Shown in pieces: positions 1,375 to 63,198 of a DNA stretch of 64,000 nt. The notes under the pieces were generated by a model. That model saw only the letters and a list, made by a program, of their open reading frames with translations, made no database searches and was not told where the DNA came from. The stretch is taken from the NCBI GenBank assembly GCA_030679255.1, contig JAUXTO010000019.1, positions 1,699 through 65,698 of the forward strand, read 5' to 3'. The position numbers were made by a program, and so were the translations under genes. This stretch comes from Candidatus Gottesmanbacteria bacterium. GTDB taxonomy: Bacteria > Patescibacteriota > Microgenomatia > UBA10105 > UBA927. Position 1 is the first letter of the stretch. Each line of letters begins with the position of its first letter.

Positions 1375-1375
1375 A

Positions 1376-1984: not shown

Positions 1985-2023
1985 AGCCTTCTTCAGTTTA
2001 CATTTTACCGTTTACCATGTCTA

Positions 2024-25038: not shown

Positions 25039-25442
25039 AATCTATCGTTATCGCTGACGCATCTGTGCTCCTTACCGCTCTTTTTGGCTCGAACGATCGC
25101 ACAGCCACAAAGCTCAACCGATTATTACACGACGATGCTTCTCTGGTGCATATTCTCCCCTTCACGATCATAGAATTTGCCAATGGGGTACGCTTTTCTA
25201 CCCGCGATGTGCCCGCCGCGACACGAATACTGAAACAGTTTAACGCGCTAACACTTCCCGTTATGGAAATAACATCAGCAGACGTTCAGGCGATTGTCGA
25301 ACTTTCCTACCGACTCGATACGACCGTCTATGACACCGCGTACCACCACATGGCCCTTATGCAGGGCGGGGTATTTGTAACCTGTGATAAAGGCTACTTC
25401 AAAAAAGCATCAACGCTGGGGCATGTAGAACTGTGGGGATAA
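25035..25442 (+). CDS. PIN-domain toxin (VapC-like)
   Basis: IVIADASVLLTALFG...D..YHH pattern of a PIN fold. Confidence 0.6.
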   Translation: MKSIVIADASVLLTALFGSNDRTATKLNRLLHDDASLVHILPFTIIEFANGVRFSTRDVPAATRILKQFNALTLPVMEITSADVQAIVELSYRLDTTVYDTAYHHMALMQGGVFVTCDKGYFKKASTLGHVELWG

Positions 25443-26435: not shown

Positions 26436-26451
26436 AGAGTCAAATCAATGT

Positions 26452-26561
26452 GTCATCCCCGCGCTCCTTGTTGTCATTCCCGCCCGCCGCGACGGGTAAA
26501 CTCCGGCGGGAATCCATTCCTCATTTTAACACTGGATCCTCGGGTCAAGCCCGAGGATGAC
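26452..26561. repeat. MITE-C, a bipartite hairpin element (GTCATYCC...GGRATGAC). It provides the C-terminus and stop codon of the 26474 gene.
   Basis: gtcattcccgcc..ggcgggaatcc .. ggatcctcgggtcaagcccgaggatgac. Confidence 0.7.
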
Positions 26562-27781
26562 AATAATGAAATGAGCAGTTCTACCCCACTCCCCGCCCAA
26601 AGGCTCAAAATAGGGTAATAGACGAGCGTGTGGCGACTTTCGTTGGAGAGGAGTGGGAAGAGGAACGTAATGTAACAAAACAAGAGTGTTGAAAAAAGAA
26701 AAACAGGTTCGCCCAAAACCTTCTTACCTTTCCCCCCTACCTGCCGGAGTATCCCCACGAACCACATCCCGATCAGGGTTATATTCAGGATCCGCATGGG
26801 CCACTGATCCCACGGATAAAATTTATCAACATACGTATAGATATGATCCTTATCCCACAGCCACACGACGTTCATGGCAATATTGGAAAGGAACGTGGGC
26901 CACTCCCCCGGCAGACGCGCGAGAAGCATGCCTTTATATTTTTCCGAATGCGCGGCTTTGCCTTCGAGCGGCGTGTTCCAATAGCTCTGGACAACCTGCC
27001 CGTACTCGGGAATCTCGCCTTTAAACTCGACCTCCGGATACTTCCACCGGAAAAAGTTGAGGTAGATGATTTCATACTTGAGGTTATACGGCGGGACGAG
27101 CGAGACTTTGCCGAACGTTTTATAATTGACGATCAGCGAATAGGACGAGGCGAGGAGAAAACCGGCAAGCAAAAACGCCAATAATTTCCCTCCCCGAAAT
27201 ACCCCAAATTCCCTCAAAGCCCCAAATCCCAGTATTCCAAAAAAGACAAACAGGAAGTAGTAAAACGAATGGCGGGTAAAAAGAAGAAGCCCGGCCGTCA
27301 GCCCAAAGCCAAGCCAAAGGAACGCGTGCGTCCGAAGCGCCGGCCGCGAAAGGATATACACGAAAAGTGATACAAGGAAGATACTCACGGTTTCGGCTAG
27401 AGCTAGGCCGGTAAACGCGGCAACAAAGGGATTAAAGAGGTAGATAATAAATGAGAATAACGCTGCCTTCTGATTGAATAGTTTTTTGGCAGTTTCATAA
27501 AGAAGGATGGCGGAAGTGAGATCAATGACGATGTGGACCAATCGGACGGCAGTAAGATTTTCAATTCCAAAAAAGTTGTAGATGACCGCCAAAAACGCTC
27601 CGTAGCCCATATTTTTGGCACAGCAGTCGATGGGCCATTTCCCTAGAAGAAATTGAATAGCAAAATCCGAATAGCCTTTGCTGTCAAAAACTATCGTATT
27701 GTAAGCGTTAAACGCGAGGATCAGGCGGAATACCAATCCCCCCAGAAAAAGCCAAATCAATAATTTAGTCTGTTTCGTCAT
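26474..27781 (-). CDS. ArnT/PMT-like GT-C membrane glycosyltransferase
   Basis: Polytopic; N-terminal loop motif similar to the other ArnT-like paralogs. Confidence 0.5.
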   Translation of the reverse strand: MTKQTKLLIWLFLGGLVFRLILAFNAYNTIVFDSKGYSDFAIQFLLGKWPIDCCAKNMGYGAFLAVIYNFFGIENLTAVRLVHIVIDLTSAILLYETAKKLFNQKAALFSFIIYLFNPFVAAFTGLALAETVSIFLVSLFVYILSRPALRTHAFLWLGFGLTAGLLLFTRHSFYYFLFVFFGILGFGALREFGVFRGGKLLAFLLAGFLLASSYSLIVNYKTFGKVSLVPPYNLKYEIIYLNFFRWKYPEVEFKGEIPEYGQVVQSYWNTPLEGKAAHSEKYKGMLLARLPGEWPTFLSNIAMNVVWLWDKDHIYTYVDKFYPWDQWPMRILNITLIGMWFVGILRQVGGKGKKVLGEPVFLFSTLLFCYITFLFPLLSNESRHTLVYYPILSLWAGSGVELLISLLSSSGLTRGSSVKMRNGFPPEFTRRGGRE

Positions 27782-27784
27782 GTA

Positions 27785-28321
27785 TTATTTACTATAGACG
27801 ATGTTCGTCCTGCCATACACCCACCAAAAGAAATGAAGCATCAGAGCCGGTACAAGAAAAAATGTAAACGGCTTACGGCTTACGTATACCTCGCCCATTC
27901 GCTCAATATCCCCTGACGCCACAAACCGCGCGAGGCGCTTGTCGACGATCTTCATATGATTATAGTGTGTAAGAAGCGTTCTTCGTGATACGCCCGCGCG
28001 TCCCGCCCGGACGACCTCGCCCAACACCCGCATCCTGATTGATGACTCCATGACGCCAAAAATCCCCATAAAATAATTGCCCGTGAGAAGGGTCGAAAGC
28101 AGGAATGACGCTGCCACAATGCCCAACGTCGGGACGGCACCCATACCACGCATACTACTCACGATGCCCAGGAATACATGGGCCGCCATACTCACAAAAA
28201 CGTACGTCATCCAAAAGACCGGGATCACCGACCGGTCAGAAATCTGCCGGAGAACCAGGACGTGAAGGGCCAAAAAAATCAGAAACGTCCCCACTGATCC
28301 CGCAAGAATAAAGATATCCAT
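27785..28321 (-). CDS. Membrane protein with a C-terminal winged-helix-like domain; paralog of 28325..28828
   Basis: VSRRTLLTHYNHMKIVDKRLARFV versus ITREEILTHFSDAETVVNRVNTLLYEKFL. Confidence 0.4.
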   Translation of the reverse strand: MDIFILAGSVGTFLIFLALHVLVLRQISDRSVIPVFWMTYVFVSMAAHVFLGIVSSMRGMGAVPTLGIVAASFLLSTLLTGNYFMGIFGVMESSIRMRVLGEVVRAGRAGVSRRTLLTHYNHMKIVDKRLARFVASGDIERMGEVYVSRKPFTFFLVPALMLHFFWWVYGRTNIVYSK

Positions 28322-28324
28322 AGA

Positions 28325-28828
28325 TTACCCTCCCCGCTCCCATTTCATGAGCCGTCGGTACCAGGTCATGAATCGTGCGATGGGGATTGCTTTAGGAGCT
28401 GCATGCAACCGGTTACCGCCCTCTACGAGGAATTTCTCATAGAGAAGGGTATTCACGCGGTTGACGACCGTTTCCGCATCAGAAAAATGCGTGAGAATTT
28501 CCTCCCGCGTGATCGGACCATGGCGCCGGACAAGAAACAATACCTTCATCGAGGGACTCCGTGCGTCAAAAAAGAAACTCATGAAAAACAAAAAATGCGC
28601 GCCGGAAAAAAGAAGAAAGAGAAATAGAGCGCTCATTGGTAGAGTTCCGGGTATCTTGAAATAAAGTAGCCAACCAATGACCATGGCGCTTGGAATAAAA
28701 ATAAGAAAACTATTCTTCGTCAGCTTTCCAAATCCCAACGCGAGGGCACGGTGAAGAATAACATGAATCAAAGCAGTCAGGAGATACCAGCCCAAACTCA
28801 CAAAAAATTGCACCATAGAAATCCTCAC
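28325..28828 (-). CDS. Membrane protein, paralog of 27785..28321
   Basis: As above. Confidence 0.4.
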   Translation of the reverse strand: MRISMVQFFVSLGWYLLTALIHVILHRALALGFGKLTKNSFLIFIPSAMVIGWLLYFKIPGTLPMSALFLFLLFSGAHFLFFMSFFFDARSPSMKVLFLVRRHGPITREEILTHFSDAETVVNRVNTLLYEKFLVEGGNRLHAAPKAIPIARFMTWYRRLMKWERGG

Positions 28829-29535
28829 TGTTTTCTCAATGTTCCGGTTATATCTTCTGATACGAGGTCAACGAGAATTTTCGCGGTATGATAGATCGTT
28901 TTCCACCGGAATACCGACGCGACCCCGCTCCTTCGCGGTTCAAACAAAAATGGAATCTCGAGTAGGGTTGCTCCTCGGCCAATAAGGCGGATCCGGAGTT
29001 CTGCAAGAAACGTATTCCCATCGCTCGCCAGCCCCGCTTGTTTTACGAGCGACGTTTTACACATAAACGGCCCGGTATAGTAGCGCAGATCGAGGTGAAA
29101 CAAGAGGTTGCAGACCGTCACAAACAGATGGGAAATTATTCTCCGGTCAATCGTGCGCATGAGGGGGTTGGCCATATAGGCCGAGATAAAATCGGCTTTA
29201 TTGCGGGCTTTGATCAAATCTTCAAGCGATTCTTTTTTCATCTCGTTGTCGCTTGGAAACAGGGTCGTGTAGTCAAAGGAGGCTCGTGCCAGTCCCAAAC
29301 GGAAGGCGTGTCCGAATCCCATATTTTGTGGGGATTGGATGACCTGCACATGAGGAGATTTTTTGGCTATCTTCTGGGCGGCTGCCCCTGTATCATCGCT
29401 ACTGCCATCATTGATAATGATAATTTCGTACGGAATGCGCAATTTTTTGCAAACATCCGATACAGAAGAGACCGCGCGATCCAGATTGCCGGCTTCGTTA
29501 TACGCGGGCATGATGATACTTATTCCGGCTTTCAT
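28825..29535 (-). CDS. GT2 polyprenyl-phosphate sugar synthase-like
   Basis: ISIIMPAYNEAGNL...IIIINDGSSDDT. Confidence 0.65.
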   Translation of the reverse strand: MKAGISIIMPAYNEAGNLDRAVSSVSDVCKKLRIPYEIIIINDGSSDDTGAAAQKIAKKSPHVQVIQSPQNMGFGHAFRLGLARASFDYTTLFPSDNEMKKESLEDLIKARNKADFISAYMANPLMRTIDRRIISHLFVTVCNLLFHLDLRYYTGPFMCKTSLVKQAGLASDGNTFLAELRIRLIGRGATLLEIPFLFEPRRSGVASVFRWKTIYHTAKILVDLVSEDITGTLRKQ

Positions 29536-30662
29536 ACCTTGGTATAAAATTTTTGGATCACGGAGACGATCTGCCCCACATCACGGCCCGTCATATATTG
29601 GTGGCACGGGAGGGTGAGGATCGTATCGGCCTGCCGCTCGCACACCGGGAAATCTCCCTTTTTGTATCCGAGATACCGTGCGGCTTTCTGCAAATGAATC
29701 GGGGTGGGATATTGGATAACCGCCTCTATGCCTTGTTTGGCAAGATACGTGATCAATGCGTCCCGACGTTTGGCCATCACGACATAATTGGTGTACGTGT
29801 GAACAATAGGAGCTGTACACAAATTTCTGTCGGGTACATGCACATGCCCAGCTAACGGCTTGAGGAGCCGATCGTAGAGGACGGCAAGCGACCGGCGCTT
29901 TTTGACGACACCGGGCATCTGGGGCAGGAGAACGGAGGCAATCGCGGCGTGAATGGTGTCCAGCCTGCTGTTATGGGCAAAAAATTCAACTTCGTTTCTC
30001 GTCTTTAACCCGTGGTTACGCCAAAGTTTGAGCTTGGTGGCGAGTGTCGCGTCATTGGTCGTAATCATGCCGCCGTCCCCCCAGACGTGGAGAATCTTCA
30101 TAGGATGGAAACTGTAGGCCCCCGCCGTCCCAATGGTCCCCAAATATTTGCTGCCGTAGCGAGCGAGAAATGCCTGCGCCACATCTTCAACGACTGCCAG
30201 ATGGTGGCGCTTGGCGATAGCCATAATGGGCTTCATGTCCGCCGGTTGTCCCGTAAGATGGACGGGAATAATGGCTTTTGTTTTTTTCGTGATTACTTTT
30301 TGGATACATGCTGGATCGATAGTGTAGTCATCCCGCACATCAGCAAACACCGGACGGGCGCCGGTCAGGGCGATAGCCGCCGCTGTCGCGACAAAACTAT
30401 TTGGGGCGGTGATGACCTCGTCTCCTACCCCGATGCCAAGGGCTTTGAGAATAAGATACAACGCATCCGTACCGTTGCCAACCCCGATGACATGTTTGAC
30501 GCCCAGTATTTTGGCAGCCTGCGCTTCAAAAACAGCAACCTCTTTTCCTAAGGTAAAATCCCCGCGCCGGGCAACGGCTTCAATTTTTTTAAGATACGTG
30601 CCCGGCCGTTCGAACTGTTTTTTGAGATACGCGTAGGGCAATGTCCATGCTGGTGATTTCAT
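29532..30662 (-). CDS. DegT/DnrJ/EryC1/StrS-family PLP-dependent sugar aminotransferase
   Basis: GVGNGTDALYLILKALGIGVGDEVITAPNSFVATA. Confidence 0.75.
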   Translation of the reverse strand: MKSPAWTLPYAYLKKQFERPGTYLKKIEAVARRGDFTLGKEVAVFEAQAAKILGVKHVIGVGNGTDALYLILKALGIGVGDEVITAPNSFVATAAAIALTGARPVFADVRDDYTIDPACIQKVITKKTKAIIPVHLTGQPADMKPIMAIAKRHHLAVVEDVAQAFLARYGSKYLGTIGTAGAYSFHPMKILHVWGDGGMITTNDATLATKLKLWRNHGLKTRNEVEFFAHNSRLDTIHAAIASVLLPQMPGVVKKRRSLAVLYDRLLKPLAGHVHVPDRNLCTAPIVHTYTNYVVMAKRRDALITYLAKQGIEAVIQYPTPIHLQKAARYLGYKKGDFPVCERQADTILTLPCHQYMTGRDVGQIVSVIQKFYTKV

Positions 30663-30709
30663 ACGATATCGCCTACTCTAGCACGGGAAAGAATTTTGTG
30701 CAATGAAGA

Positions 30710-31786
30710 TTAAAATGGGCCGGTGAAGGTAGGGTCGGGCTGGTCGGGGGAAAATCCGGGTACCTCGGTGATTGCCGCGGCGTATTCCTTTACGATGCGA
30801 GCAACAACTGTCTGCTTCCTCCCGCACAACACAAGCGCGCTTCGCAGGATATCGATGCCCGTGGGGTAATACGATCCAGCCAGTGCCGGGCTCGTAGGGG
30901 TGGGCATATCCGGGAGCGCAATACGCACCGGCGGCATAGCAAAATGAACCCCGGCCTCGGCAACCATTGCCACGATCTCCGCTCCGATGCCAAAGGATTT
31001 CCAGCCGGTATCAGCGACGATCAGACGGTGGGTTTTTTGCACTGATTTGACGATGGTGTTGCGGTCTAGCGGTCGGATAGACCGCAGGTCAACCACTTCC
31101 GCGGCAATCCCCTCTTGAAGGAGTGCCTCGGCAGCTCTCATCGCTTCAATCGTCATGTACGACGCGGCGACAATCGTCACATCCCTCCCAGCTTTAGCAA
31201 CCCGCGCGTTCCCGATCGGGACTTCGTAATATCCTTTCGGCACATCTCCCGTCAGGGCGTGGAGCCAGCGGTGTTCAATGAAGATAACTGGATTGTTATC
31301 GCCAATGGCAGACAGTAACAAGCCCTTCGCATCAGCGGGGACAGCAGGCATGACCACTTTTAAACCTGGAATATGAGCAAAAAGAGCCTGTAAACTTTGT
31401 GAGTGCTGCGGCCCCGGCCCCCATCCCCTCCCCACGACCATACGGATCACAAGAGGAACGCTTTGCTTTTGGCCGAACATAAAGTACCACTTTGCCGCAG
31501 TATTGACGATGGCGTCAAAAGACATAAGCGTAAAGTCCATGCGCGCGTGGACCATAATCGGGCGCATGCCGGAAATAGCGGCCCCCACACAGATGCCAGT
31601 CATCCCGTTTTCGGCAACGGGCATATCCATGACCCGGCCGGGAAATTTTTGTGCGAGTCCAATGGTCGTCCCGAATATACCCTTCGCGTCCGGCACGCCC
31701 TCGCCGATGACAAACACGGACGGGTCGCGGGTAAGGGCGATTTCCTGGGCCTCGTTTATCGCCTGGGCGTAGGTTACGGTTCTCAT
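30710..31786 (-). CDS. TPP-dependent 2-oxoacid dehydrogenase E1 beta-like subunit (transketolase-like)
   Basis: VFVIGEGV....GRVMDMPVAENGMTGICVGAAISGMRP. Confidence 0.65.
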   Translation of the reverse strand: MRTVTYAQAINEAQEIALTRDPSVFVIGEGVPDAKGIFGTTIGLAQKFPGRVMDMPVAENGMTGICVGAAISGMRPIMVHARMDFTLMSFDAIVNTAAKWYFMFGQKQSVPLVIRMVVGRGWGPGPQHSQSLQALFAHIPGLKVVMPAVPADAKGLLLSAIGDNNPVIFIEHRWLHALTGDVPKGYYEVPIGNARVAKAGRDVTIVAASYMTIEAMRAAEALLQEGIAAEVVDLRSIRPLDRNTIVKSVQKTHRLIVADTGWKSFGIGAEIVAMVAEAGVHFAMPPVRIALPDMPTPTSPALAGSYYPTGIDILRSALVLCGRKQTVVARIVKEYAAAITEVPGFSPDQPDPTFTGPF

Positions 31787-32739
31787 GATTGATGATCCTC
31801 CTTATACACAAGCCGTTCGTCTTCCCTATTCACCGATGGAAAAGGGCTCTTGCGGGCAAAGGAAAAAGCGTCCCGGATTTCCTTGCTGATTTTTTCTTTC
31901 ATGGAATCAATCTCTTTTCCTTTAAAAAGCCGTCCCATGCGGGAGAGCGGATCATTCTTTTTCCATCGCGCGAGCTCCCCCGCCGGACGCAGCGCAGGCC
32001 CATCCTCGTGAGGTCCGCAATGCTCCAAAAACCGGTACGTCAGACATTCCAAAAAACCCGGCCCCTTCCCGTTTCGGATGAACCCGACAAATTTGTTGGC
32101 GGCTGTGTACACCGCTCCCGAGTCTTGACCGTCCACGGTTTGAGCGGTCATGCCATGGCCACTGGCAAGATTTGCGATAGGACGGCGGGCCTGACGGTCA
32201 AGGATATTCGTGACTGTTGAATACATATTGTTTTCACAAACAAAGAGGACCGGAAGTTTCCTGAGAACGGCAAAATTCATGGCTTCATGTGCTATCCCCT
32301 CCTCGACTGCCGCATCGCCGAAAAAACAAACGGCAATACCCGGCTTCTTGAGCATCGTGCGCGAAAACGCAACTCCTACAGCAACGGGAATGGTGGATGC
32401 AACGATAGGGGCGGCTCCCAAAAAATTCGCATCCAGGTCGATAAGGTGCATTGAGCCACCGATGCCTTCGGAACACCCTGTTGCTTTCCCATAAAGCTCG
32501 GCTATCATTGCTCTCAAGCTCCCGCCTTTGGCCAAATAATGTCCATGGGAGCGATGGGTGGAGAAGACCACATCTTCCTTTTTAAGAGCTGCGCAGACAC
32601 CTGCCGCAATTGCCTCCTGCCCGATGCAAAGGTGCGTGGGGCAGCGCATTTCCTGTTTCGGATACTCTCGGGCTATCGCCTCCTCCACCATACGGATACG
32701 GAGCATTTCGTAGAATAGCTTTTTATCTATTTTTATCAT
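31783..32739 (-). CDS. TPP-dependent dehydrogenase E1 alpha-like subunit
   Basis: HLCIGQEAIAAGV...HRSHGHYLAKGG...GGSMH. The 4-nt overlap with the beta gene suggests an operon. Confidence 0.65.
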   Translation of the reverse strand: MIKIDKKLFYEMLRIRMVEEAIAREYPKQEMRCPTHLCIGQEAIAAGVCAALKKEDVVFSTHRSHGHYLAKGGSLRAMIAELYGKATGCSEGIGGSMHLIDLDANFLGAAPIVASTIPVAVGVAFSRTMLKKPGIAVCFFGDAAVEEGIAHEAMNFAVLRKLPVLFVCENNMYSTVTNILDRQARRPIANLASGHGMTAQTVDGQDSGAVYTAANKFVGFIRNGKGPGFLECLTYRFLEHCGPHEDGPALRPAGELARWKKNDPLSRMGRLFKGKEIDSMKEKISKEIRDAFSFARKSPFPSVNREDERLVYKEDHQS

Positions 32740-32751
32740 AGATCACCTATA

Positions 32752-33747
32752 TTACCGAGGGTACTTAGGAAAGTTTGCTTGCATGACCCTGATGTTGTAA
32801 TATTTTTTGTTTGTAAGTACATCCGGCAATAGTCCTCTTTCATAGGCAATTTTAATATCCCCTATCGCTTCCTCGACGGTGTGACGGGAAGTAAATCCCA
32901 ACTCATTCTTAATTTTTTCTGATGAGATGTGATAGGAACGGTTATCGTTCGTGGGCTTCACGTCAATGACAATAGATGGATCTCCCAATACCCGTTTAAC
33001 CATCAGAGCCAACTCCATGACGGAATAATTTTGATACCCTGCATTGTAAATCTTTCCTGCGATCTTTTTCTTTGGCGACTCAAGAAGAGTCATATATGCC
33101 CTACACATATCGGTAATATGAATATTCGGGCGCTTTTGCGCTCCGCCAAAAACAGTAATGGATTTTTGTGTGAGCGCGCTCATTGTCAAAATATTCACCG
33201 AGAGATCCAGCCGCATCCGGGGAGAGTACCCGCATACCGTCGCGGGCCGGATGATGACCGGAGTGAAATCACCATCTTGTTTGGATAATAAATATTGTTC
33301 ACAACGTGCCTTGTATTTGGAATAATCGGTGAGAGGCTCGAGGGGTAAATCTTCCGTAACATTTTTTTCGGCTTTCACGCCATAGACGCTTGAGCTCGAG
33401 GCATAGATGAATCGCCGGACGCCTGCTTTTTTGGACTGATCAATAAGCGCGGTCGTCGCATCAAAATTAATGGATTTGCCTAAGGTAGGATCGAGCTCAA
33501 AACTCGGATCGTTGGAGATACACGCCAGATGGATGACCGTATCAATGCCCTTGAGGGACTTTTTGATCACAGCCGGATCGCGGATATCCCCCCGGACACA
33601 TTCAAGATTCTTGTGCGTCGTCAATACGTCGCCATACAGAAACAAGTCAAGAACACGGACACGATACCCTTTTTTCAACAACAATGGCACGAGGACTGCT
33701 CCGACGTACCCCGCCCCACCGGTGATCAACACGTTCTTATTTGTCAT
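32752..33747 (-). CDS. NAD-dependent epimerase/dehydratase (SDR)
   Basis: VLITGGAGYVGAVLVPLLL. Confidence 0.7.
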   Translation of the reverse strand: MTNKNVLITGGAGYVGAVLVPLLLKKGYRVRVLDLFLYGDVLTTHKNLECVRGDIRDPAVIKKSLKGIDTVIHLACISNDPSFELDPTLGKSINFDATTALIDQSKKAGVRRFIYASSSSVYGVKAEKNVTEDLPLEPLTDYSKYKARCEQYLLSKQDGDFTPVIIRPATVCGYSPRMRLDLSVNILTMSALTQKSITVFGGAQKRPNIHITDMCRAYMTLLESPKKKIAGKIYNAGYQNYSVMELALMVKRVLGDPSIVIDVKPTNDNRSYHISSEKIKNELGFTSRHTVEEAIGDIKIAYERGLLPDVLTNKKYYNIRVMQANFPKYPR

Positions 33748-33770
33748 AGGATAAAGAATTGTGTCATCCT

Positions 33771-34868
33771 CTAACGCAATAATTTTGATATAAATCGCGT
33801 CAGATCATCAAACGTAATCGGTGTTTTATTGCCGACGGTTTGTATTTTGATCGCTGCAGCAGCGTTTCCCACAAAAAGCGCCGTAGATAAATCCATGCCC
33901 ATTGCCAAACACGGTGCAATGACGGAATACAGCGCATCCCCTGCCCCTACCCGGTCAACTATCGTATCGGTGAAGGCCGGCACATCGACAAATCCCTTTT
34001 CTTTATTGTAGCCGGTGCTGCCGTGAGCGCCGCGGGTGACGATAAGCGTCTGGGTATGGAGATGCCGTGCGACCATCTTGGCAAGCCTCAAGACATCGCT
34101 ATAGCGGTCATGCGTCGCAAGTCTAATCTCATGGATATCGGTGGTGGCAATATCTGCCCGCGGATATTTCGTGATGATATTAAATCCATAGTTGGCACTA
34201 TTAGCCTGGACGTTGATGGCCAGGAGCTTGGCTTTTCGGGTAATGAGCCGGATGAGTTTTGGGGTCAAAAATCCATGACCAAAGTCATTGACCATGATCA
34301 GGTCATATTTCGGAAGTTCGCGTTTCAAATACACCGCAATGGTTTTTTCGAGTGTCGGACTGATGAAATCGTCCCAGATAAAACTCACTTGAAATAATTT
34401 TTGGTTGGCGTATTGGTCAATATACCGGCGTTTGATAATGGTCGACCCTTCCCGGAAAAAAAACTTCGGCTTAATCGATTTTTTTAGATGCGTACGGATG
34501 AACGGTTCGCAAGAAGGAGATTTGCCTAAGAGTGTGACCAGTGTGACATTGTCCGAAAGCGCCGCAGTATGGTTGACGGTTGCTAACGCCCCGCCGGCGT
34601 AAGATTCTTCCCGTGCGTAGCGGTGGACCACGAGCGGTTCTTTGGAGGATTTCCCCATGGGCGTCGTGTAGTGATACTCATCGATGATCGCCTCCCCAAT
34701 GACGAGGATCTTCATGGATCGAAGTTTTCCCAGTTCCTCAATAACAGTCCGGGCGCTATGACTTTTGGAAAATGATGATAGGAAACTCGCGCGGTCAATA
34801 GGTTCCTGCATGGGTGTCATCATATACCACTCCGCTTTATTTTTGCAATCAAAGCTTCGCCGGCACAA
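33771..34868 (-). CDS. PfkB-family sugar kinase (RfaE/HldE kinase-domain-like). The start is probably near 34823.
   Basis: KILVIGEAIIDEY...DRVGAGDALYSVIAPCLAMG. Confidence 0.65.
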   Translation of the reverse strand: MCRRSFDCKNKAEWYMMTPMQEPIDRASFLSSFSKSHSARTVIEELGKLRSMKILVIGEAIIDEYHYTTPMGKSSKEPLVVHRYAREESYAGGALATVNHTAALSDNVTLVTLLGKSPSCEPFIRTHLKKSIKPKFFFREGSTIIKRRYIDQYANQKLFQVSFIWDDFISPTLEKTIAVYLKRELPKYDLIMVNDFGHGFLTPKLIRLITRKAKLLAINVQANSANYGFNIITKYPRADIATTDIHEIRLATHDRYSDVLRLAKMVARHLHTQTLIVTRGAHGSTGYNKEKGFVDVPAFTDTIVDRVGAGDALYSVIAPCLAMGMDLSTALFVGNAAAAIKIQTVGNKTPITFDDLTRFISKLLR

Positions 34869-34909
34869 GGCACGCGAGGGGCAAGATTCAAGAGTGTCTC
34901 AAAAAACTA

Positions 34910-35329
34910 TTATTTCGGCCAGAGAAAGGCGCCGAGCATTTCGTCCAACATCAGTTCTTTTTCTTCGCCGGACTCGTGAGTGAGAAGGATCGTCATGGGA
35001 ATGCCTGACCGCTTTTGGCTTTCATACAGGAGCTGTTTGCACATGTGGCAGGGATAAGCAAATTGTCCTTTTTCAAGTTTCTCATTACTCAAGCACGCCA
35101 TCGTAACGACCTCCCCTTCTCCGTGGGCTGCGGCGTGAACCAGGGCGCACTGTTCTCCGTGGAGAGTCAATGAATATGTATCGGAAAAATATTGGGCTGC
35201 CGCGTACACGTTTCCGGATTTGGTGAGCACCGCTGCAGCATAGGTAGTGGCGGCACCTTTAGGATAGGAATTTTTCATCGCCTCCGTAAGGGCGGCTTTC
35301 AATTTCGTTTTCTGATGATCAGTAAGCAT
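34910..35329 (-). CDS. CMP/dCMP-type (cytidine) deaminase family protein
   Basis: HGEQCAL ... PCHMCKQ zinc-binding motifs. Confidence 0.6.
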   Translation of the reverse strand: MLTDHQKTKLKAALTEAMKNSYPKGAATTYAAAVLTKSGNVYAAAQYFSDTYSLTLHGEQCALVHAAAHGEGEVVTMACLSNEKLEKGQFAYPCHMCKQLLYESQKRSGIPMTILLTHESGEEKELMLDEMLGAFLWPK

Positions 35330-35359
35330 AAAGAGTTTACTAAATACTATCCTGCCCGA

Positions 35360-35839
35360 CTATCTCCACAATGAAAATTTCTTGGTTAATTCAGAAAGAG
35401 TCATACGGTCACCAAAAAAACAGATGCCATAATATTCAAGTTCCACCTCAACCGTTTCGCTTGTTCTCTGCTTTTGCTCTACGAACGTCCCAACGGTCAT
35501 GGTGTTTGTAAAATCTGTGAAGGGAATAGAATGTTCTTTAAGTGCATTCCTTAGTGTACGTATCTGGTTGGAGTTATCGCTCGATACTATGATAAAGGGA
35601 TTATCGGATATGCTGGGATGCACTCCCCCATCCTTGTCTCTATAGCTATCAAACCGCATGGCTTCTTTATCCGGCACAAGGGCAGAAAGACCAGCCGTCA
35701 TATGTCCCAAAGCGTTCATGAGCTTGCCGGTTTCAATTTTCTTATTGAGCACTGCAACAAATTTGTGTGTCGTGGGATTGGTATTCATAATCATTATTGT
35801 ATGAAGATAGTACTCGTTGCTATTTTCAAAGTCTAGCAC
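35360..35839 (-). CDS. DUF2000-family protein
   Basis: KFVAVLNKKIETGKLMNALGHMTAGL. Confidence 0.45.
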   Translation of the reverse strand: MLDFENSNEYYLHTIMIMNTNPTTHKFVAVLNKKIETGKLMNALGHMTAGLSALVPDKEAMRFDSYRDKDGGVHPSISDNPFIIVSSDNSNQIRTLRNALKEHSIPFTDFTNTMTVGTFVEQKQRTSETVEVELEYYGICFFGDRMTLSELTKKFSLWR

Positions 35840-35896: not shown

Positions 35897-35925
35897 AGCT
35901 TCGCAAGGCCAGGCCTTGCGAAGCT
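35897..35925. repeat. REP-A palindrome (centre A), 26 nt upstream of the RAYT gene
   Basis: agcttcgcaaggccaggccttgcgaagct. Confidence 0.9.
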
Positions 35926-36685: not shown

Positions 36686-38920
36686 CTAAATAGCTAGCTT
36701 CGCAAGGCCTGGCCTTGCGAAGCTAAAGATAATGACAAGTATGGTCAATATGCTTATTGCGGCGCCCCAAAGGACGATCGTTGGGCGGTAGGAAAAGACG
36801 ATCGTGTGGGTGCCCTTCGGGAGATAGAGCGTCCGGAAGGCGGCGTTGCTTTCAAAAATCGGAGTGCTTTTGCCGTCAACCGTTGCCTTCCATCCCGGAT
36901 ACATAACTTCGCTTGTGGCAAGAAACGCGTTACAGGGAGTAGCCGCGGTCAGTGATATTTTTCCATATCCGTAGGAATTGACAGTGACCGTTCCTTTAGT
37001 GTCCGCCGGACAATCCGGATTGAATCCCGATACATCCACTCGAGTCCCGTCCACGATGATTGTCGTTTTCGGGTCCACGCTCCCACGTTTGATTGCTGAT
37101 AATACCGCTTCCCTATTAGGTTCTTTTTGCATCTTCGTTGCGATAAAAAAGCGAGGGCTTACATTTTTATTTTCATACAACCTCCATCCGCGATTCTTAT
37201 TTTCTCTCACTAACTCAAATTGTTTCGTTGAAATATGTTTGATGGCATCACTCGCTATCGGCACGAGAATGTATTTAATGTTGAGATAATTTAAGTACGG
37301 TGATGTGATAGCACGAAACGGCGGGGTGGACTCGCTGTAGGAAAGCACGTCGGTAAATTTGTACCCGTTGGCGGCAAGGAGAAATTCGTACATATTGCGA
37401 AGTGGTGGCGTATCGTAACCGGATACGGACTGAATTTTATGCGCAATCGGCGCGTTAAACTCGAGGACGTCCCGCAGGGGATCGCCGTGATAAAAATTCG
37501 GGAGAAAACGATAGAGACTTTTGTCATTGATAAACGCGGAAACTAATGCGGTATCCTCGCTTTTTTCCGGAATGGGAACCAATGAAAGGTGGCGGCGGGC
37601 AAACGGAACGAGATCAAGGAGGAGTAAACCTACAACAATCACCTGCAATATTTTTGATTTGACCATGCTCAATCCAATTCCAAATAATACACTTGCCGAC
37701 AGCACAAAAAGCACGATGTGCCGAGCCGGAATACGGATTTGGCTGTAGAGAGGCATCCACGAACGAACCCAAGAAAAAAGATCGAGGGGCGCGTTCTGCC
37801 CCAACCACATCCATATCCCAAAAATACCGACGAGGACAAACGCCGGAATTTCCCACGATGTTTTCTTTTTCACGACCCACGAGGCGACCGCTAGAAGTGC
37901 AAAGAGAAGCGATACTTTTCCAAAGTACCCCACGTGCTCAAATCCGAAGCCCGAGTCCGGCAGACGCGAGTAAAAATAAAATGGATCTATAAATTCAAGC
38001 AGGTGTCCGACTGTCGGCGTCCCAAGTTGGGCCCAACTATCCGGAAACGAAAACGTCCGGATGCTATGGGCTATGAATTGGGCGTTGGGGAGAAGTTGGA
38101 TTACTGCCAGACCAAATCCGATTAATATTGCAGCTCCGACACGAACCATTGGTTGGAAAATAATAGATAGGTTAAGAGTTGTCATCCCCGTGCCTGTAGG
38201 GGATCCAGTTTTTACTCTGGATTCCCGCGTACGCGGGAATGACTGAAAAATATTATAGCATTGATAAATCAACATCATGATAAACACTCCTTCCAGCGTA
38301 AACACTGCAACCATCGGATGACCAGCCAATAGCTGTATGGCCAACGCCACCCCGGCAAACGCGATGTTTTTTCTGCTGATAGCTGATAGCTGACCCGCTT
38401 CGCCAAAACAGCGAGGCGAGCAGCTGAAAGCTAAAATCACCCACGGCATCCACGCCGATGCAGCAATGATATCGATGTGTCCGGCTGGAATGCGGGCCAC
38501 AAAGTACGCGGACAATCCGAAGGCGACTCCCGCCCCCCACGCGGCAATTTTTGACATTTGACCTTTGATATTTGACATTGCGCGAAGCGCGCAGTACATC
38601 CCGGACATCGCGATAAACAGATGCAGGGCAATGTACCAGGAAATAGCAGCATTGGTGGGCAACAATACAAATAAAATATTCGGGAGATACCAAAAGGGAA
38701 TTTGCGGATGCTCAAGATATGGCTGACCGCCGAAAATGTACGGATTCCACCACGGAATAGTTCCCAGTTTAAGCGACTCCCCCAAAAACTGCCGCTGCCA
38801 ATAATGGTACCGCCAGATATCCGGTCCAAATAATATTTTTCCCTCCGGTGGCCATAGAACTCCCCAAAACACCACGAGAACAAGGATGGCATAGGCCAAA
38901 AATGGAAAAAACTTTTTCAT
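36686..38920 (-). CDS. YfhO-family membrane glycosyltransferase, paralog A
   Basis: WWNPYIFGGQPY...SAWMPWV...C-terminal YPGWKATVDGK..AFR..LPKGTHTIVFSYRP. Carries in-frame MITE-C, Elem-F, an SSR and a terminal REP. Confidence 0.7.
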   Translation of the reverse strand: MKKFFPFLAYAILVLVVFWGVLWPPEGKILFGPDIWRYHYWQRQFLGESLKLGTIPWWNPYIFGGQPYLEHPQIPFWYLPNILFVLLPTNAAISWYIALHLFIAMSGMYCALRAMSNIKGQMSKIAAWGAGVAFGLSAYFVARIPAGHIDIIAASAWMPWVILAFSCSPRCFGEAGQLSAISRKNIAFAGVALAIQLLAGHPMVAVFTLEGVFIMMLIYQCYNIFQSFPRTRESRVKTGSPTGTGMTTLNLSIIFQPMVRVGAAILIGFGLAVIQLLPNAQFIAHSIRTFSFPDSWAQLGTPTVGHLLEFIDPFYFYSRLPDSGFGFEHVGYFGKVSLLFALLAVASWVVKKKTSWEIPAFVLVGIFGIWMWLGQNAPLDLFSWVRSWMPLYSQIRIPARHIVLFVLSASVLFGIGLSMVKSKILQVIVVGLLLLDLVPFARRHLSLVPIPEKSEDTALVSAFINDKSLYRFLPNFYHGDPLRDVLEFNAPIAHKIQSVSGYDTPPLRNMYEFLLAANGYKFTDVLSYSESTPPFRAITSPYLNYLNIKYILVPIASDAIKHISTKQFELVRENKNRGWRLYENKNVSPRFFIATKMQKEPNREAVLSAIKRGSVDPKTTIIVDGTRVDVSGFNPDCPADTKGTVTVNSYGYGKISLTAATPCNAFLATSEVMYPGWKATVDGKSTPIFESNAAFRTLYLPKGTHTIVFSYRPTIVLWGAAISILTILVIIFSFARPGLAKLAI
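36696..36724. repeat. REP-A palindrome forming the 3' end (FARPGLAKLAI-stop) of YfhO paralog A
   Basis: Exact palindrome. Confidence 0.9.
38181..38243. repeat. MITE-C element in-frame within YfhO A (adds SFPRTRESRVKTGSPTGTGMTT)
   Basis: gtcatccccgtgcctgtaggggatcc agtttttactct ggattcccgcgtacgcgggaatgac. Confidence 0.75.
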
Positions 38921-63169: not shown

Positions 63170-63198
63170 AGCTTCGCAAGGCATTGCCTTGTGAAGCT
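63170..63198. repeat. REP-A variant (agcttcgcaaggcattgccttgtgaagct), intergenic, preceded by GTAG
   Basis: Imperfect palindrome. Confidence 0.8.

What the first reader, a model, noticed from the sequence alone, without database searches (positions are those of the whole stretch)
29532..35329. Nucleotide-sugar tailoring cluster with a TPP-dependent E1 alpha/beta pair next to a DegT aminotransferase: candidate branched or unusual amino-sugar pathway
The genes run contiguously on one strand: DegT aminotransferase, E1 beta, E1 alpha (4-nt overlaps), SDR dehydratase/epimerase, PfkB sugar kinase, then a cytidine-deaminase-family protein. Further SDR epimerases lie at 16442 and 25455. A nucleotidyltransferase-HAD fusion lies at 38917..40026, and a WecD-like acetyltransferase plus GtrB-like GT2 at 42382..43916. 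Kinase plus nucleotidyltransferase plus phosphatase is the HldE/GmhB logic of NDP-heptose synthesis. Pyruvate-dehydrogenase-like E1 pairs in sugar clusters (AviB1/AviB2 type, from memory) are proposed to attach two-carbon branches. The combination points to a modified, possibly acylated or branched, amino- or heptose-type sugar used by the GT-C enzymes.
Basis: inference. Interest (0 to 1): 0.55.

Follow-up and report, generated by a model that had tools for sequence, protein, structure and literature searches.

The report
Heptose sugar pathway with stand-alone E1 enzyme
A groundwater-type candidate-phylum bacterium carries an operon that appears to build an activated seven-carbon sugar, oxidise it, modify it with a pyruvate-dehydrogenase-like enzyme pair that has no dehydrogenase-complex partners, add an amino group and export it on a lipid carrier; the same uncharacterised enzyme cassette turns up in many phyla.

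Summary
All six genes sit where stated, on the minus strand. They belong to a 12-gene operon (35839..25455) that continues into a lipid-carrier glycosyltransferase (GT2), two small membrane proteins, a PMT_2 GT-C glycosyltransferase and a second SDR.

The window comes from a Candidatus Gottesmanbacteria MAG. The E1 alpha/beta pair is not housekeeping. No E2 or E3 homologue occurs in the 64-kb window or in 87 related loci. The pair separates from nine E2-linked reference E1s in 99-100% of bootstraps. Its beta subunit carries a roughly 40-residue C-terminal extension ending in ...F[TK]GPF.

Relatives of the pair, about 50% identical, occur in more than 15 phyla. They almost always lie next to GmhA, a reversed-order HldE-like nucleotidyltransferase-kinase, and orthologues of both window SDRs. 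The SDR just upstream of E1 alpha is most similar to PDB 6VO6 (from memory, Cj1427, the NDP-heptose C4-dehydrogenase).

Best reading: NDP-heptose is oxidised to the 4-keto sugar, E1 adds a two-carbon unit from pyruvate, DegT aminates, and the product goes to polyprenyl phosphate and then to a GT-C. The heptose link and the non-housekeeping status rest on tool results. The two-carbon chemistry is inferred.

The cytidine deaminase and DUF2000 genes are probably bystanders. I rate this a new variant of a known kind.

The parts
40023..42296 (-). YfhO-type GT-C membrane glycosyltransferase (757 aa, about 9 TM segments). Its 3' end overlaps the start of the NT-HAD gene.
   Evidence: Pfam PF09586; TM count. 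The YfhO-NT-YfhO arrangement is conserved in L001, L003 and L004; L007 keeps the two YfhO genes but fuses the NT to the kinase.
38917..40044 (-). Fusion of a nucleotidyltransferase (aa ~40-183, HldE domain II-like) with a HAD-IIIA phosphatase (aa ~192-352, GmhB-like).
   Evidence: NCBIfam rfaE_dom_II 110 bits (cut-off 181.5), GmhB PRK08942 66 bits, HAD-IIIA 58.8 bits. tblastn with E. coli HldE and GmhB hits here. The same fusion occurs in Woesearchaeota loci L006, L010 and L014.
36686..38920 (-). YfhO-type GT-C membrane glycosyltransferase (744 aa). Its start overlaps the stop of NT-HAD by 4 nt.
   Evidence: Pfam PF09586; coordinates.
35360..35839 (-). DUF2000 protein, first gene of the co-directional run. 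Probably not part of the pathway.
   Evidence: Pfam PF09391, 112 bits. Present only in the close relatives L003/L004; absent from L001, L007 and all distant loci.
34910..35329 (-). Cytidine/deoxycytidylate-deaminase-fold protein (139 aa; the HGE...PCxxC zinc motif is present). Probably a salvage enzyme riding along.
   Evidence: Pfam PF00383, 37.5 bits; sequence. Found beside the cassette only in L001, L003 and L004.
33771..34868 (-). PfkB-family sugar-phosphate kinase of the heptose-7-phosphate kinase type (HldA / HldE domain I-like).
   Evidence: NCBIfam rfaE_dom_I 141 bits (cut-off 345). Apart from a weak fructokinase match, the only solved relative is 4e84, 'D-beta-D-heptose 7-phosphate kinase'. 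Orthologous (200-430 bits) to the kinase half of NT-kinase fusions that sit beside GmhA in other phyla.
32752..33747 (-). Extended SDR ('SDR1'), candidate NDP-heptose C4-dehydrogenase. Has an S/Y/K triad (SSSSVYG, YSKYK) and no dehydratase acid/base pair.
   Evidence: Best solved match is 6vo6/6vo8, 156 bits, aligned over residues 3-302. Motifs. 58% identical to the SDR directly upstream of E1a in Azospirillum oryzae. An orthologue is present in 26/43 related loci.
31783..32739 (-). TPP-dependent E1 alpha subunit.
   Evidence: Pfam PF00676, 208 bits. TIGR03182 279 bits, below the cut-off of 394. Closest solved structure is human PDH E1a, 149 bits. Separates from E2-linked references in 99/100 bootstraps.
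30710..31786 (-). E1 beta subunit (358 aa). Overlaps E1 alpha by 4 nt.
   Evidence: Pfam Transket_pyr + Transketolase_C. NF006667 303 bits, below the cut-off of 321. Solved PDH E1b structures align only to residue ~317. 100/100 bootstraps against E2-linked references with the tail columns removed.
30713..30832 (-). C-terminal extension of E1 beta (aa ~319-358), ending ...PDQPDPTFTGPF. The terminal D[VI]P[DN]xxF[TK]GPF motif is a signature of the subfamily.
   Evidence: Alignment of 78 E1b sequences from related loci. Absent from all nine reference E1b sequences; present in Azospirillum (FRGPF) and as FAGPY in a Streptomyces PKS/NRPS-cluster E1b.
29532..30662 (-). DegT-family PLP sugar aminotransferase with the catalytic lysine intact (SFHPMK, K189).
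   Evidence: Pfam PF01041, 336 bits. Best solved match 3uwc, 335 bits, then 7b0d, then the 3-aminotransferases QdtB, the 2oga transaminase and WbpE. Lysine motif.
28825..29535 (-). Soluble GT2 (236 aa, no TM segment) of the polyprenyl-phosphate glycosyltransferase type.
   Evidence: Pfam PF00535. Best solved matches are dolichol-P-mannose synthase 5mlz and the glycosyltransferase sll0501 (5ekp); ArnC entries follow lower in the list. No TM segment.
28325..28828 (-). Small membrane protein (167 aa): N-terminal TM helices plus a soluble C-terminal domain. Weak paralogue of the next gene. Proposed anchor or partner of the GT2, or a flippase component.
   Evidence: No Pfam or NCBIfam hit. Hydropathy. 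BLASTP against the 178-aa protein gives E = 0.004. Conserved position in L001, L003, L007 and L009.
27785..28321 (-). Small membrane protein (178 aa): three TM helices, a helix-helix-hairpin (winged-helix-like) cytoplasmic module, and a C-terminal hydrophobic helix.
   Evidence: AlphaFold2 model, mean pLDDT 69. No significant fold match in the PDB. Homologues found only in Gottesmanbacteria and other Patescibacteria.
26474..27781 (-). PMT_2-family GT-C glycosyltransferase (435 aa, about 7 TM segments).
   Evidence: Pfam PF13231, 39 bits. TM count. No solved sequence relative. Conserved at this position in L001, L003 and L007.
25455..26435 (-). Extended SDR ('SDR2'), epimerase-like (SSTCYG, YALTK), last gene of the operon.
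   Evidence: Pfam/NCBIfam: LegB-like 171 bits, GalE 156 bits, heptose 6-epimerase 131 bits. Tied with L032 for third-best locus hit of E. coli HldD. 57% identical to the Azospirillum cassette SDR. An orthologue is present in 15/43 related loci.

Best explanation
The operon 35839..25455, together with the upstream YfhO/NT-HAD/YfhO block, makes and exports a modified heptose-derived amino sugar for the cell surface. Proposed steps:

1. Heptose 7-phosphate is phosphorylated at C1 by the PfkB kinase. It would be made by a GmhA encoded outside this window.
2. The 7-phosphate is removed by the GmhB-like HAD domain.
3. The sugar is activated to an NDP-heptose (probably ADP-heptose) by the HldE-domain-II-like nucleotidyltransferase.
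4. SDR1, a Cj1427-like enzyme, oxidises C4 to give an NDP-4-keto-heptose.
5. The E1 alpha2beta2 enzyme works without E2 or E3. It decarboxylates pyruvate to hydroxyethyl-TPP and adds this two-carbon unit to the sugar carbonyl. This is an acyloin-type C-C bond formation, as proposed for AviB1/AviB2 and Plm8/Plm9, and would give a C9 branched keto sugar.
6. DegT (catalytic Lys intact) converts a keto group to an amine. SDR2 epimerises.
7. The soluble GT2, held at the membrane by the two small TM proteins, loads the sugar onto polyprenyl phosphate.
8. After flipping, the PMT_2 GT-C and/or the YfhO GT-Cs transfer it to an extracytoplasmic acceptor.

Shown by tool results: gene content and order; family assignments; absence of E2/E3; separation from E2-linked E1s; the conserved beta tail; and co-occurrence with GmhA and reversed HldE across phyla.

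Inferred: the substrate identity, the carbon attacked by E1, the position aminated, and the acceptor.
For: Gene families.

Operon structure: gaps of 47 nt or less, three 4-nt overlaps. Synteny in L001, L003 and L007.

Heptose link:
- Best profiles are rfaE_dom_I, rfaE_dom_II and GmhB.
- The only strong solved relative of the kinase is a heptose 7-phosphate kinase.
- In 43 related loci with full flanks, 32 have the kinase, 25 have GmhA, and 38 have one or the other.
- All 42 fused proteins have the order NT->kinase. This is the arrangement reported for Coxiella CBU0678, which is essential for phase I LPS (PMC5843353).
- A transaldolase equivalog occurs in 5 loci.

C4 oxidation:
- SDR1's best solved match is 6vo6/6vo8. 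From memory this is Cj1427, whose function as a GDP-heptose C4-dehydrogenase recycled with alpha-ketoglutarate is documented in PMC10680097.
- An L-2-hydroxyglutarate oxidase equivalog (563 bits) lies in 8 related loci and on S. magneticus pDMC1.

E1 is not part of a dehydrogenase complex:
- Zero AceF/Lpd homologues in the window plus 87 loci.
- Scores fall below the NCBIfam PDH cut-offs.
- Bootstraps of 100/100 (beta) and 99/100 (alpha) against nine reference E1s, eight of them with an adjacent E2.
- The conserved ...GPF tail is absent from those references.

Precedent for E1 pairs adding a pyruvate-derived two-carbon branch to NDP-4-keto sugars: PMC4802897 and PMC4753412.

Lipid-carrier route: the GT2's best solved matches are DPMS and sll0501, with ArnC lower in the list, and a PMT_2 GT-C lies downstream.
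Against: - No GmhA lies within the 64-kb window.
- The kinase, NT, HAD and E1 scores are all below curated equivalog cut-offs.
- DegT's nearest characterised solved relatives are C3-aminotransferases (QdtB, WbpE). That does not obviously fit amination of a C4 branch or of C4 itself.
- In 15 related loci a 4,6-dehydratase-like SDR follows E1b, so the chemistry around C4 may be more complex than proposed, or E1 may act elsewhere on the sugar.
- No sugar with this structure is known from any organism carrying the cassette.
- AviB1/AviB2 could not be compared directly.
- The equation of 6VO6 with Cj1427 rests on my memory. The PDB name in the tool output is generic.
- The reference set for the tree is small (nine plasmid-borne E1s), and the cassette sequences were selected for similarity to the query.
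Confidence: 0.55

Rival explanations
1. Same heptose pathway, but DegT acts directly on the 4-keto product of SDR1 to give a 4-amino-4-deoxy-heptose. This follows Ara4N logic (ArnB/ArnC/ArnT) and resembles SepG in septacidin. The E1 pair then acts at another carbonyl, for example extending the side chain at C6/C7 to a 9-deoxy-nonose-type sugar, or supplies an activated two-carbon group for a different decoration.
For: - DegT + GT2 + small TM proteins + PMT_2 GT-C resembles the Arn layout.
- 4-oxidation followed by 4-transamination of a heptose is documented for septacidin (PMC9978623).
- Related loci often carry a separate acetolactate-synthase-like (YerE-like) TPP enzyme in 11/43 loci, and a 4,6-dehydratase-like SDR follows E1b in 15 of the 80 scanned loci. 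These could supply the C4 chemistry.
Against: - SDR1 sits immediately upstream of E1a more often than any other identified gene family (14 loci). In the window the order is SDR1-E1a-E1b-DegT.
- Characterised E1-type sugar enzymes act on C4 ketones.
- No dedicated side-chain oxidase is present in the window operon.
Confidence: 0.25
2. The kinase, phosphatase and nucleotidyltransferase activate a sugar other than heptose. The E1 pair and DegT then tailor that sugar in this CPR lineage.
For: - No GmhA in the window, nor in the ±10 kb (±8 kb for L006 and L007) around the pair in the split-gene variants L001, L003, L006, L007, L010 and L014.
- Scores are below the equivalog cut-offs.
- S. magneticus pDMC1 has an E1 pair with an unrelated kinase and NT.
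Against: - The window kinase scores 392 bits against the kinase half of the L009 fusion (another Gottesmanbacteria), and that fusion lies two genes upstream of GmhA. It scores 200-340 bits against GmhA-linked fusions in other phyla.
- SDR1 and SDR2 are 57-58% identical to those of the Azospirillum cassette, which includes GmhA.
Confidence: 0.12
3. The E1 pair is an ordinary pyruvate or acetoin dehydrogenase E1 that happens to lie in a glycan island. Its E2/E3 partners are encoded elsewhere.
For: - The best profiles are PDH E1 models.
- The catalytic His residues aligned with those of human E1 (alpha 'EHC', beta 'QHSQ') are conserved (residue roles are from memory).
- E1b is only slightly less similar to acetoin-type E1b (47%) than to cassette E1b in other phyla (about 50%).
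Against: - No E2/E3 within ±8-10 kb (less where the contig ends) in 87 related loci from more than 15 phyla, nor in the window.
- Consistent embedding between sugar-nucleotide genes.
- Separate clade.
- The C-terminal extension displaces the normal beta C-terminus.
- 4-nt translational coupling inside a sugar operon.
Confidence: 0.03

Closest known systems
AviB1/AviB2 (avilamycin) and Plm8/Plm9 = Pau11/Pau12 (paulomycin): E1 alpha/beta pairs that attach a pyruvate-derived two-carbon branch at C4 of NDP-4-keto sugars
   Same: A PDH-E1-like alpha/beta pair without E2/E3, encoded inside a nucleotide-sugar cluster, next to the enzyme expected to generate a 4-keto sugar.
   Different: Those act on dTDP-deoxyhexoses or pentoses in actinomycete antibiotics. 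Here the context is an HldE/GmhB-type heptose pathway feeding a surface glycan through polyprenyl phosphate. Sequence relationship and presence of the GPF tail could not be tested (no sequences reachable).
Campylobacter jejuni capsular heptose modification: Cj1427 C4-dehydrogenase followed by epimerases and reductases
   Same: SDR1's best solved match is 6vo6/6vo8 (156 bits). L-2-hydroxyglutarate oxidase in related loci fits the alpha-ketoglutarate-dependent recycling described for Cj1427.
   Different: C. jejuni uses GDP-alpha-heptose made by a different kinase and NT set, and has no TPP enzyme. Here the activation genes are HldE-type and an E1 pair follows the dehydrogenase.
ADP-heptose pathway GmhA-HldE-GmhB(-HldD) and the reversed-domain paralogue CBU0678 of Coxiella burnetii
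   Same: Kinase, NT and phosphatase domains of the same families. Related cassettes have the NT->kinase order in 42/42 fusions, like CBU0678, which is essential for phase I LPS and of 'unknown' function (PMC5843353). The Coxiella LPS region cbu0664-0704 also holds GmhA- and SDR-type genes and 'pyruvate dehydrogenases' CBU_0686/0692/0693 (PMC5423948).
   Different: In the window the kinase is separate, the NT is fused to the phosphatase, and GmhA is missing from the 64 kb. The Coxiella proteins were not compared by sequence here, so the link is a literature lead.
Three-component lipid-carrier glycosylation (ArnC/ArnE-F/ArnT; GtrB/GtrA/GtrX; CsbB/GtcA/YfhO) and the eukaryotic DPM1-DPM2-DPM3 complex
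   Same: A GT2 whose best solved matches are polyprenyl-phosphate glycosyltransferases, followed by small membrane proteins and a GT-C. The aminotransferase just upstream recalls ArnB.
   Different: The GT2 has no TM helices, like DPM1. The two small proteins match no GtrA or ArnE/F family and carry a soluble winged-helix-like module.
YerE (yersiniose A): acetolactate-synthase-like TPP flavoenzyme that adds a two-carbon branch to CDP-4-keto sugar
   Same: The same proposed chemistry. YerE-like proteins co-occur with the E1 pair in 11/43 related loci.
   Different: A different protein family (TPP_enzyme_N/M/C). None is present in the window.

Membership tests
2-oxoacid dehydrogenase complex E1 (PDH / acetoin / BCKDH type) | E1 alpha (PF00676) and E1 beta (Transket_pyr + Transketolase_C) subunits with a TPP-binding core | tested here: met
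2-oxoacid dehydrogenase complex E1 (PDH / acetoin / BCKDH type) | Partner E2 (lipoyl acyltransferase) and E3 encoded with or near E1 | tested here: not met
   phmmer/tblastn with E. coli AceF and Lpd gave no hit in the window or in 87 related loci. Eight of the nine reference E1s used for comparison do have an adjacent E2. The rest of the genome could not be searched.
2-oxoacid dehydrogenase complex E1 (PDH / acetoin / BCKDH type) | Scores above curated equivalog cut-offs, and clustering with complex-forming E1s | tested here: not met
   E1a 279 bits vs cut-off 394; E1b 303 vs 321. Split from E2-linked references in 99-100/100 bootstraps.
Sugar C2-branching E1 pairs (AviB1/AviB2, Plm8/Plm9) | E1 alpha/beta pair without E2/E3 inside a nucleotide-sugar tailoring cluster, next to a 4-keto-sugar-forming enzyme | tested here: met
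Sugar C2-branching E1 pairs (AviB1/AviB2, Plm8/Plm9) | Sequence clustering with the genetically characterised members | not testable with these tools
   No AviB or Plm sequences could be retrieved. A plasmid search seeded with a Streptomyces E1b found only lankacidin-type PKS contexts.
Sugar C2-branching E1 pairs (AviB1/AviB2, Plm8/Plm9) | Transfer of a pyruvate-derived two-carbon unit to an NDP-keto sugar | not testable with these tools
   Needs biochemistry.
ADP-heptose pathway (GmhA, HldE/HldA+HldC, GmhB) | Heptose-7-P kinase, heptose-1-P nucleotidyltransferase and 1,7-bisphosphate phosphatase domains | tested here: inconclusive
   The best-hitting families are the right ones, but all score below equivalog cut-offs: 141 vs 345, 110 vs 181.5, 66 vs 178. 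A solved heptose kinase is the only strong match.
ADP-heptose pathway (GmhA, HldE/HldA+HldC, GmhB) | Sedoheptulose-7-P isomerase GmhA | tested here: not met
   None in the 64-kb window. Present beside the orthologous E1 pair in 25/43 full-flank loci, including Gottesmanbacteria L009.
Cj1427-type NDP-heptose C4-dehydrogenase | Close sequence relationship, SDR S/Y/K triad without dehydratase residues, and alpha-ketoglutarate/L-2-HG recycling context | tested here: inconclusive
   Best PDB hit 6vo6, 156 bits. Motifs. LhgO in 8 related loci but not in the window. The identity of 6VO6 as Cj1427 is from memory.
Polyprenyl-phosphate / GT-C three-component glycosylation | GT2 polyprenyl-P glycosyltransferase plus GT-C transferase | tested here: met
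   (DPMS, GtrB, ArnC); PMT_2 39 bits.
Polyprenyl-phosphate / GT-C three-component glycosylation | GtrA / ArnE-F type flippase | tested here: not met
   The two small membrane proteins match no Pfam or NCBIfam family and no solved fold.

The most novel reading that the evidence does not exclude
The E1 pair with the ...F[TK]GPF tail defines an unrecognised enzyme family, present across bacteria and DPANN archaea, that forms a C-C bond on an NDP-4-keto-heptose. Together with the reversed HldE, a Cj1427-like dehydrogenase and DegT, it would make a so far undescribed nine-carbon (branched or chain-extended) amino sugar. CPR bacteria would display this sugar through a polyprenyl-phosphate/GT-C route. 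The same cassette may underlie the unexplained requirement for CBU0678 and its neighbours in Coxiella burnetii phase I (virulent) LPS.
Probability: 0.35. Interest if true: 0.8.

Novelty: new variant of a known kind. Interest (0 to 1): 0.6.

Why it matters
E1-type enzymes that add two-carbon branches to sugars are known only from a handful of actinomycete antibiotic pathways. Their biochemistry is barely characterised.

Here the same kind of enzyme pair sits in a conserved heptose cassette. From the literature, the Coxiella burnetii virulence LPS region appears to carry it too.

No product is known for any of these. If the reading is right, it points to a widespread, undescribed surface sugar. 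It offers tractable test organisms (Azospirillum, Coxiella). It also gives a simple sequence signature, the GPF tail, for telling these enzymes apart from pyruvate dehydrogenase, as which they are routinely annotated and sometimes interpreted metabolically. For CPR bacteria it adds a concrete, testable piece of cell-envelope biochemistry.

Tried and rejected
1. An exact-sequence look-up of the E1a product failed, probably because the called start differs. A 100%-identical 307-aa version exists (P0001).

A plasmid tblastn seeded with Streptomyces griseofuscus E1b returned only one further Streptomyces record and E2-linked E1s. The Treede 2005 paper is not held.

3. Searching papers for PDB codes 6VO6/6VO8 and 3UWC gave nothing useful. 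The Cj1427 structure paper is not held. These identifications therefore rest on memory.

4. Literature searches for heptose + TPP, and for GmhA + HldE + E1, found no description of this cassette.

5. The sigma-70 promoter and terminator scans were at chance level (25 vs 23 expected; 18 vs 22). They gave no operon boundaries.

6. The AlphaFold model of the 178-aa membrane protein was only moderate (pLDDT 69) and had no significant PDB fold match.

7. I considered a ColD/E1-type PLP dehydratase role for DegT. I rejected it because the catalytic lysine is present.

8. I considered a 4,6-dehydratase role for SDR1/SDR2. I rejected it because neither has the acid/base dyad at the dehydratase motif.

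9. The window's FabG-like SDR (43897-44637) is only about 31% identical to the short-chain reductases that follow E1b elsewhere. That is not enough to call it an orthologue.

Full report
**Observation**

The six genes named in the finding are present at the stated coordinates, all on the minus strand:
- DegT aminotransferase, 29532-30662
- E1 beta, 30710-31786
- E1 alpha, 31783-32739
- an extended SDR, 32752-33747
- a PfkB kinase, 33771-34868
- a cytidine-deaminase-fold protein, 34910-35329

The unit is larger than the finding. Twelve co-directional genes run from 35839 to 25455. Intergenic gaps are 30, 41, 23, 12, -4, 47, -4, -4, 3, 3 and 38 nt. After DegT come:
- a soluble GT2 (28825-29535)
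- two small membrane proteins with no family match (28325-28828, 27785-28321)
- a PMT_2 GT-C glycosyltransferase (26474-27781)
- a second extended SDR (25455-26435)

Upstream, beyond an IS200-like transposase gene on the other strand, lies a nucleotidyltransferase-HAD fusion (38917-40044). Its ends overlap two YfhO-type GT-C genes.

**Source and setting**

The 178-aa membrane protein is 100% identical to an NCBI protein of a Candidatus Gottesmanbacteria MAG. The best E1 alpha relatives (78-82% identity) are also from Gottesmanbacteria and other Patescibacteria.

The window is a cell-envelope island. It holds three type-IV-pilin-like genes, four YfhO-like proteins, two PMT_2-like proteins, and at least seven further polytopic membrane proteins without Pfam matches.

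**Conservation**

The order CDA/PfkB/SDR/E1a/E1b/DegT/GT2/small/small/PMT_2/SDR recurs in other Gottesmanbacteria contigs (L001, L003). In a more distant relative (L007, E1a 64% identical) the nucleotidyltransferase and kinase are fused into one protein directly upstream of the SDR.

The best 80 loci (45-56% identity) come from more than 15 phyla. These include Omnitrophota, Woesearchaeota, Nanoarchaeota, Acidobacteriota, Cyanobacteria, Chlamydiota, Verrucomicrobiota, Nitrospinota and Pelagibacter.

I mapped the window proteins and E. coli reference proteins onto all ORFs of these loci. Among 43 loci with full flanks:
- 42 have E1 beta next to E1 alpha
- 32 have the HldE-like kinase
- 25 have GmhA
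- 38 have one or the other
- 40 have an extended SDR (26 an SDR1 orthologue, 15 an SDR2 orthologue)
- 13 have DegT, often as a tandem pair
- none has an E2 or E3 homologue

All 42 fused kinase/NT proteins have the order NT then kinase. This is the reverse of E. coli HldE.

**Is the E1 pair housekeeping?**

No evidence supports that, and several results argue against it.
- E. coli AceF and Lpd find nothing in the window or in any of the 87 loci held at that point.
- NCBIfam PDH E1 models are the best hits, but below their cut-offs: 279 vs 394 for alpha, 303 vs 321 for beta.
- I collected nine plasmid-borne reference E1 pairs of acetoin, PDH and BCKDH type. Eight have an annotated E2 adjacent and four also an E3; the ninth, haloarchaeal, has neither.
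- In neighbour-joining trees, the split between these nine and everything else was recovered in 100/100 (beta, tail columns removed) and 99/100 (alpha) bootstraps. "Everything else" means the window, the 80-locus cassette set, and E2-less pairs from Azospirillum, Streptomyces and Solidesulfovibrio.
- The reference set is small and the cassette set was chosen by similarity. So this shows that the pair is not nested among E2-linked E1s. It is not a full phylogeny.

The nearest E2-linked relatives are acetoin-type enzymes. Their normal reaction is the reverse of the carboligation proposed here.

E1 beta is 358 aa. Solved PDH E1 beta structures align only to about residue 317. The extra roughly 40 residues end in PDQPDPTFTGPF. 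In every cassette E1 beta shown from that alignment (45 of the 78), a variable linker is followed by D[VI]P[DN]xxF[TK]GPF at the very C-terminus. None of the nine references has this. Azospirillum has it. A Streptomyces griseofuscus E1 beta in a PKS/NRPS cluster ends FAGPY. The Solidesulfovibrio variant lacks it.

From memory, the free C-terminus of Geobacillus E1 beta contributes to binding the E2 peripheral-subunit-binding domain. An extension would remove that contact. This is an inference.

**The sugar**

- The kinase hits rfaE_dom_I best (141 bits). Apart from a weak fructokinase match, its only solved relative is a D-beta-D-heptose 7-phosphate kinase.
- The fusion protein hits rfaE_dom_II (110 bits) and GmhB/HAD-IIIA.
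- GmhA is not in the window. However, the window kinase scores 392 bits against the kinase half of the L009 fusion in another Gottesmanbacteria, which lies two genes from GmhA. It scores 200-340 bits against GmhA-linked fusions in other phyla.
- A transaldolase equivalog, which would supply sedoheptulose 7-phosphate, lies in five related loci.

SDR1 is the identified gene family most often found directly upstream of E1 alpha (14 loci). Its best solved match is 6vo6/6vo8 (156 bits, aligned end to end, sharing the motif R.ATV.G.SPRMRLDL.VN). From memory these entries are Cj1427. [quoted passage not shown]

In line with this, an L-2-hydroxyglutarate oxidase equivalog (563 bits) lies in eight related loci and on Solidesulfovibrio pDMC1.

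SDR1 (SSSSVYG/YSKYK) and SDR2 (SSTCYG/YALTK) both lack the acid/base pair of 4,6-dehydratases. They are 58% and 57% identical to their counterparts in the Azospirillum oryzae plasmid cassette. That is high conservation between a CPR bacterium and an alphaproteobacterium.

DegT keeps its catalytic lysine (SFHPMK), so it is a transaminase and not a ColD-type dehydratase. Its closest solved relative is 3uwc (335 bits; from memory, a Coxiella burnetii enzyme). Next come 7b0d (annotated glutamine--scyllo-inositol transaminase) and the C3-aminotransferases QdtB, 2oga (from memory, DesV) and WbpE.

**Export**

The GT2 has no TM segment. Its best solved matches are dolichol-phosphate mannose synthase and the glycosyltransferase sll0501 (from memory, GtrB). 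ArnC entries follow lower in the list. All of these are polyprenyl-phosphate glycosyltransferases.

The two small proteins are weak paralogues. A moderate-confidence model of the 178-aa one shows three TM helices, a helix-helix-hairpin module and a last hydrophobic helix. It has no significant fold match.

By analogy with DPM1 and its anchors DPM2/DPM3, I suggest they tether the soluble GT2. They could also assist flipping. This is an inference.

The PMT_2 GT-C follows. The NT-HAD gene is coupled to two YfhO GT-Cs.

**Mechanism**

Known E1 alpha/beta pairs in sugar clusters (AviB1/B2, Plm8/Plm9) are held to transfer a pyruvate-derived two-carbon unit to C4 of an NDP-4-keto sugar (PMC4802897; PMC4753412).

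The window order is C4-dehydrogenase-like SDR, then E1a, E1b, then aminotransferase. This fits the same logic applied to an NDP-heptose. The product would be a nine-carbon branched keto sugar that DegT then aminates.

This step is inferred, not shown. Two observations leave room for E1 acting elsewhere on the sugar, with DegT aminating C4 directly:
- DegT's resemblance to C3-aminotransferases
- the frequent presence in other phyla of a 4,6-dehydratase-like SDR after E1b, or of a separate YerE-like TPP enzyme

That is the main rival reading.

**Links to studied organisms**

The full cassette lies on plasmids of cultured Azospirillum oryzae, A. lipoferum 4B and A. ramasamyi. In A. oryzae its order is SDR, SDR, NT-kinase, GmhA, SDR1, E1a, E1b, DegT, DegT, radical SAM, NUDIX, and glycosyltransferases flank it.

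A more distant variant with a GT-C lies on Solidesulfovibrio magneticus pDMC1.

In Coxiella burnetii the reversed-domain HldE paralogue CBU0678 is essential for phase I LPS, and its function is stated to be unknown. It sits with a phosphoheptose isomerase and two SDR genes in the LPS region cbu0664-0704 (PMC5843353). [quoted passage not shown] I could not compare these proteins by sequence, so this is a lead and not a test.

Literature searches found no description of a heptose + E1 cassette.

**Bystanders**

The cytidine-deaminase-fold gene and the DUF2000 gene accompany the cassette only in the closest relatives. I treat them as unrelated to the pathway.

**Verdict**

- Shown: the heptose logic and the non-housekeeping, E2-independent nature of the E1 pair rest on tool results.
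- Inferred: the two-carbon addition and the exact product.

The system is a new variant of a known kind. It uses an E1-type sugar carboligase in a heptose pathway coupled to lipid-carrier/GT-C export. It belongs to a widespread and apparently uncharacterised cassette that has a simple sequence signature.

Noticed in passing
window 20186-20214, 35897-35925, 36457-36485, 36696-36724, 40963-40991, 48654-48682, 63170-63198: A 29-nt perfect palindrome, AGCTTCGCAAGGCC-N-GGCCTTGCGAAGCT, occurs seven times (0 expected). Two copies flank or lie within the IS200-like Y1 transposase ORF 35951-36667, which suggests REP/RAYT-like or IS200/IS605 end hairpins. Four copies lie inside intact ORFs of large membrane proteins (19760-21472, 36686-38920, 40023-42296, 47542-49548).
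   Followed up: partly
L001 12133-12819; L003 5971-6687 and 12106-12801; window 35951-36667: The IS200-like transposase gene sits at different places in the same operon in different relatives. In L001 and L003 it lies between E1 beta and DegT; in the window it lies upstream of DUF2000. The element is therefore mobile within this locus.
   Followed up: no
L014 9977-12070 and L051 3808-5910: Natural single-chain fusions of E1 alpha and E1 beta occur in a Woesearchaeota genome and in an uncultured bacterium. They would be useful for single-chain structure prediction of the active site and the GPF tail.
   Followed up: no
related loci, e.g. L027, L045, L071, L072, L078 downstream of E1 beta: A recurrent accessory module sits next to the E1 pair: short-chain reductase, FkbM methyltransferase, acetolactate-synthase-like (YerE-like) TPP enzyme, Zn-alcohol dehydrogenase, class I methyltransferase. 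Radical SAM or B12-radical SAM enzymes are also common (17/43 loci). This suggests more elaborate higher-carbon sugars in other phyla.
   Followed up: partly
8 related loci (e.g. L070 3450-4688) and L097 18337-18975: An L-2-hydroxyglutarate oxidase equivalog is embedded in sugar clusters. This fits recycling of an alpha-ketoglutarate-dependent Cj1427-type dehydrogenase.
   Followed up: yes
window 853-2719 (minus strand): Three consecutive type-IV-pilin-like genes (N_methyl motif, T2SSG) sit at the edge of the glycosylation island. They are possible glycosylation targets.
   Followed up: no
window 14203-15804, 18137-19738, 19760-21472, 23109-24392, 47542-49548, 49563-51215, 51263-53122: Seven polytopic membrane proteins (7-10 hydrophobic segments, 427-668 aa) have no Pfam match. 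They are interspersed with YfhO and PMT_2 genes and are probably further divergent GT-C-like transferases or polymerases. 23109-24392 weakly resembles the operon's PMT_2 protein (69 bits).
   Followed up: partly
L097 (Solidesulfovibrio magneticus RS-1 plasmid pDMC1, NC_012797.1 about 22.5-37.7 kb): A cultured magnetotactic bacterium carries a distant variant: two GT2 genes, radical SAM, NUDIX, an unrelated kinase, E1a, E1b without the GPF tail, SDR, DegT, SDR, a different nucleotidyltransferase, a 166-aa hypothetical protein and a GT-C. The overall layout resembles the window operon.
   Followed up: partly
window 25035-25442 (plus strand); L001 and L003 downstream regions: A PIN-domain toxin gene lies next to the operon end. 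Relatives carry MazE/PIN and AbiEii genes in or beside the same cluster.
   Followed up: no
window 56005-57921: A 638-aa protein with a C-terminal NPCBM/NEW2 carbohydrate-binding domain (106 bits) and no other Pfam match lies next to a fourth YfhO-like gene (58043-60592).
   Followed up: no
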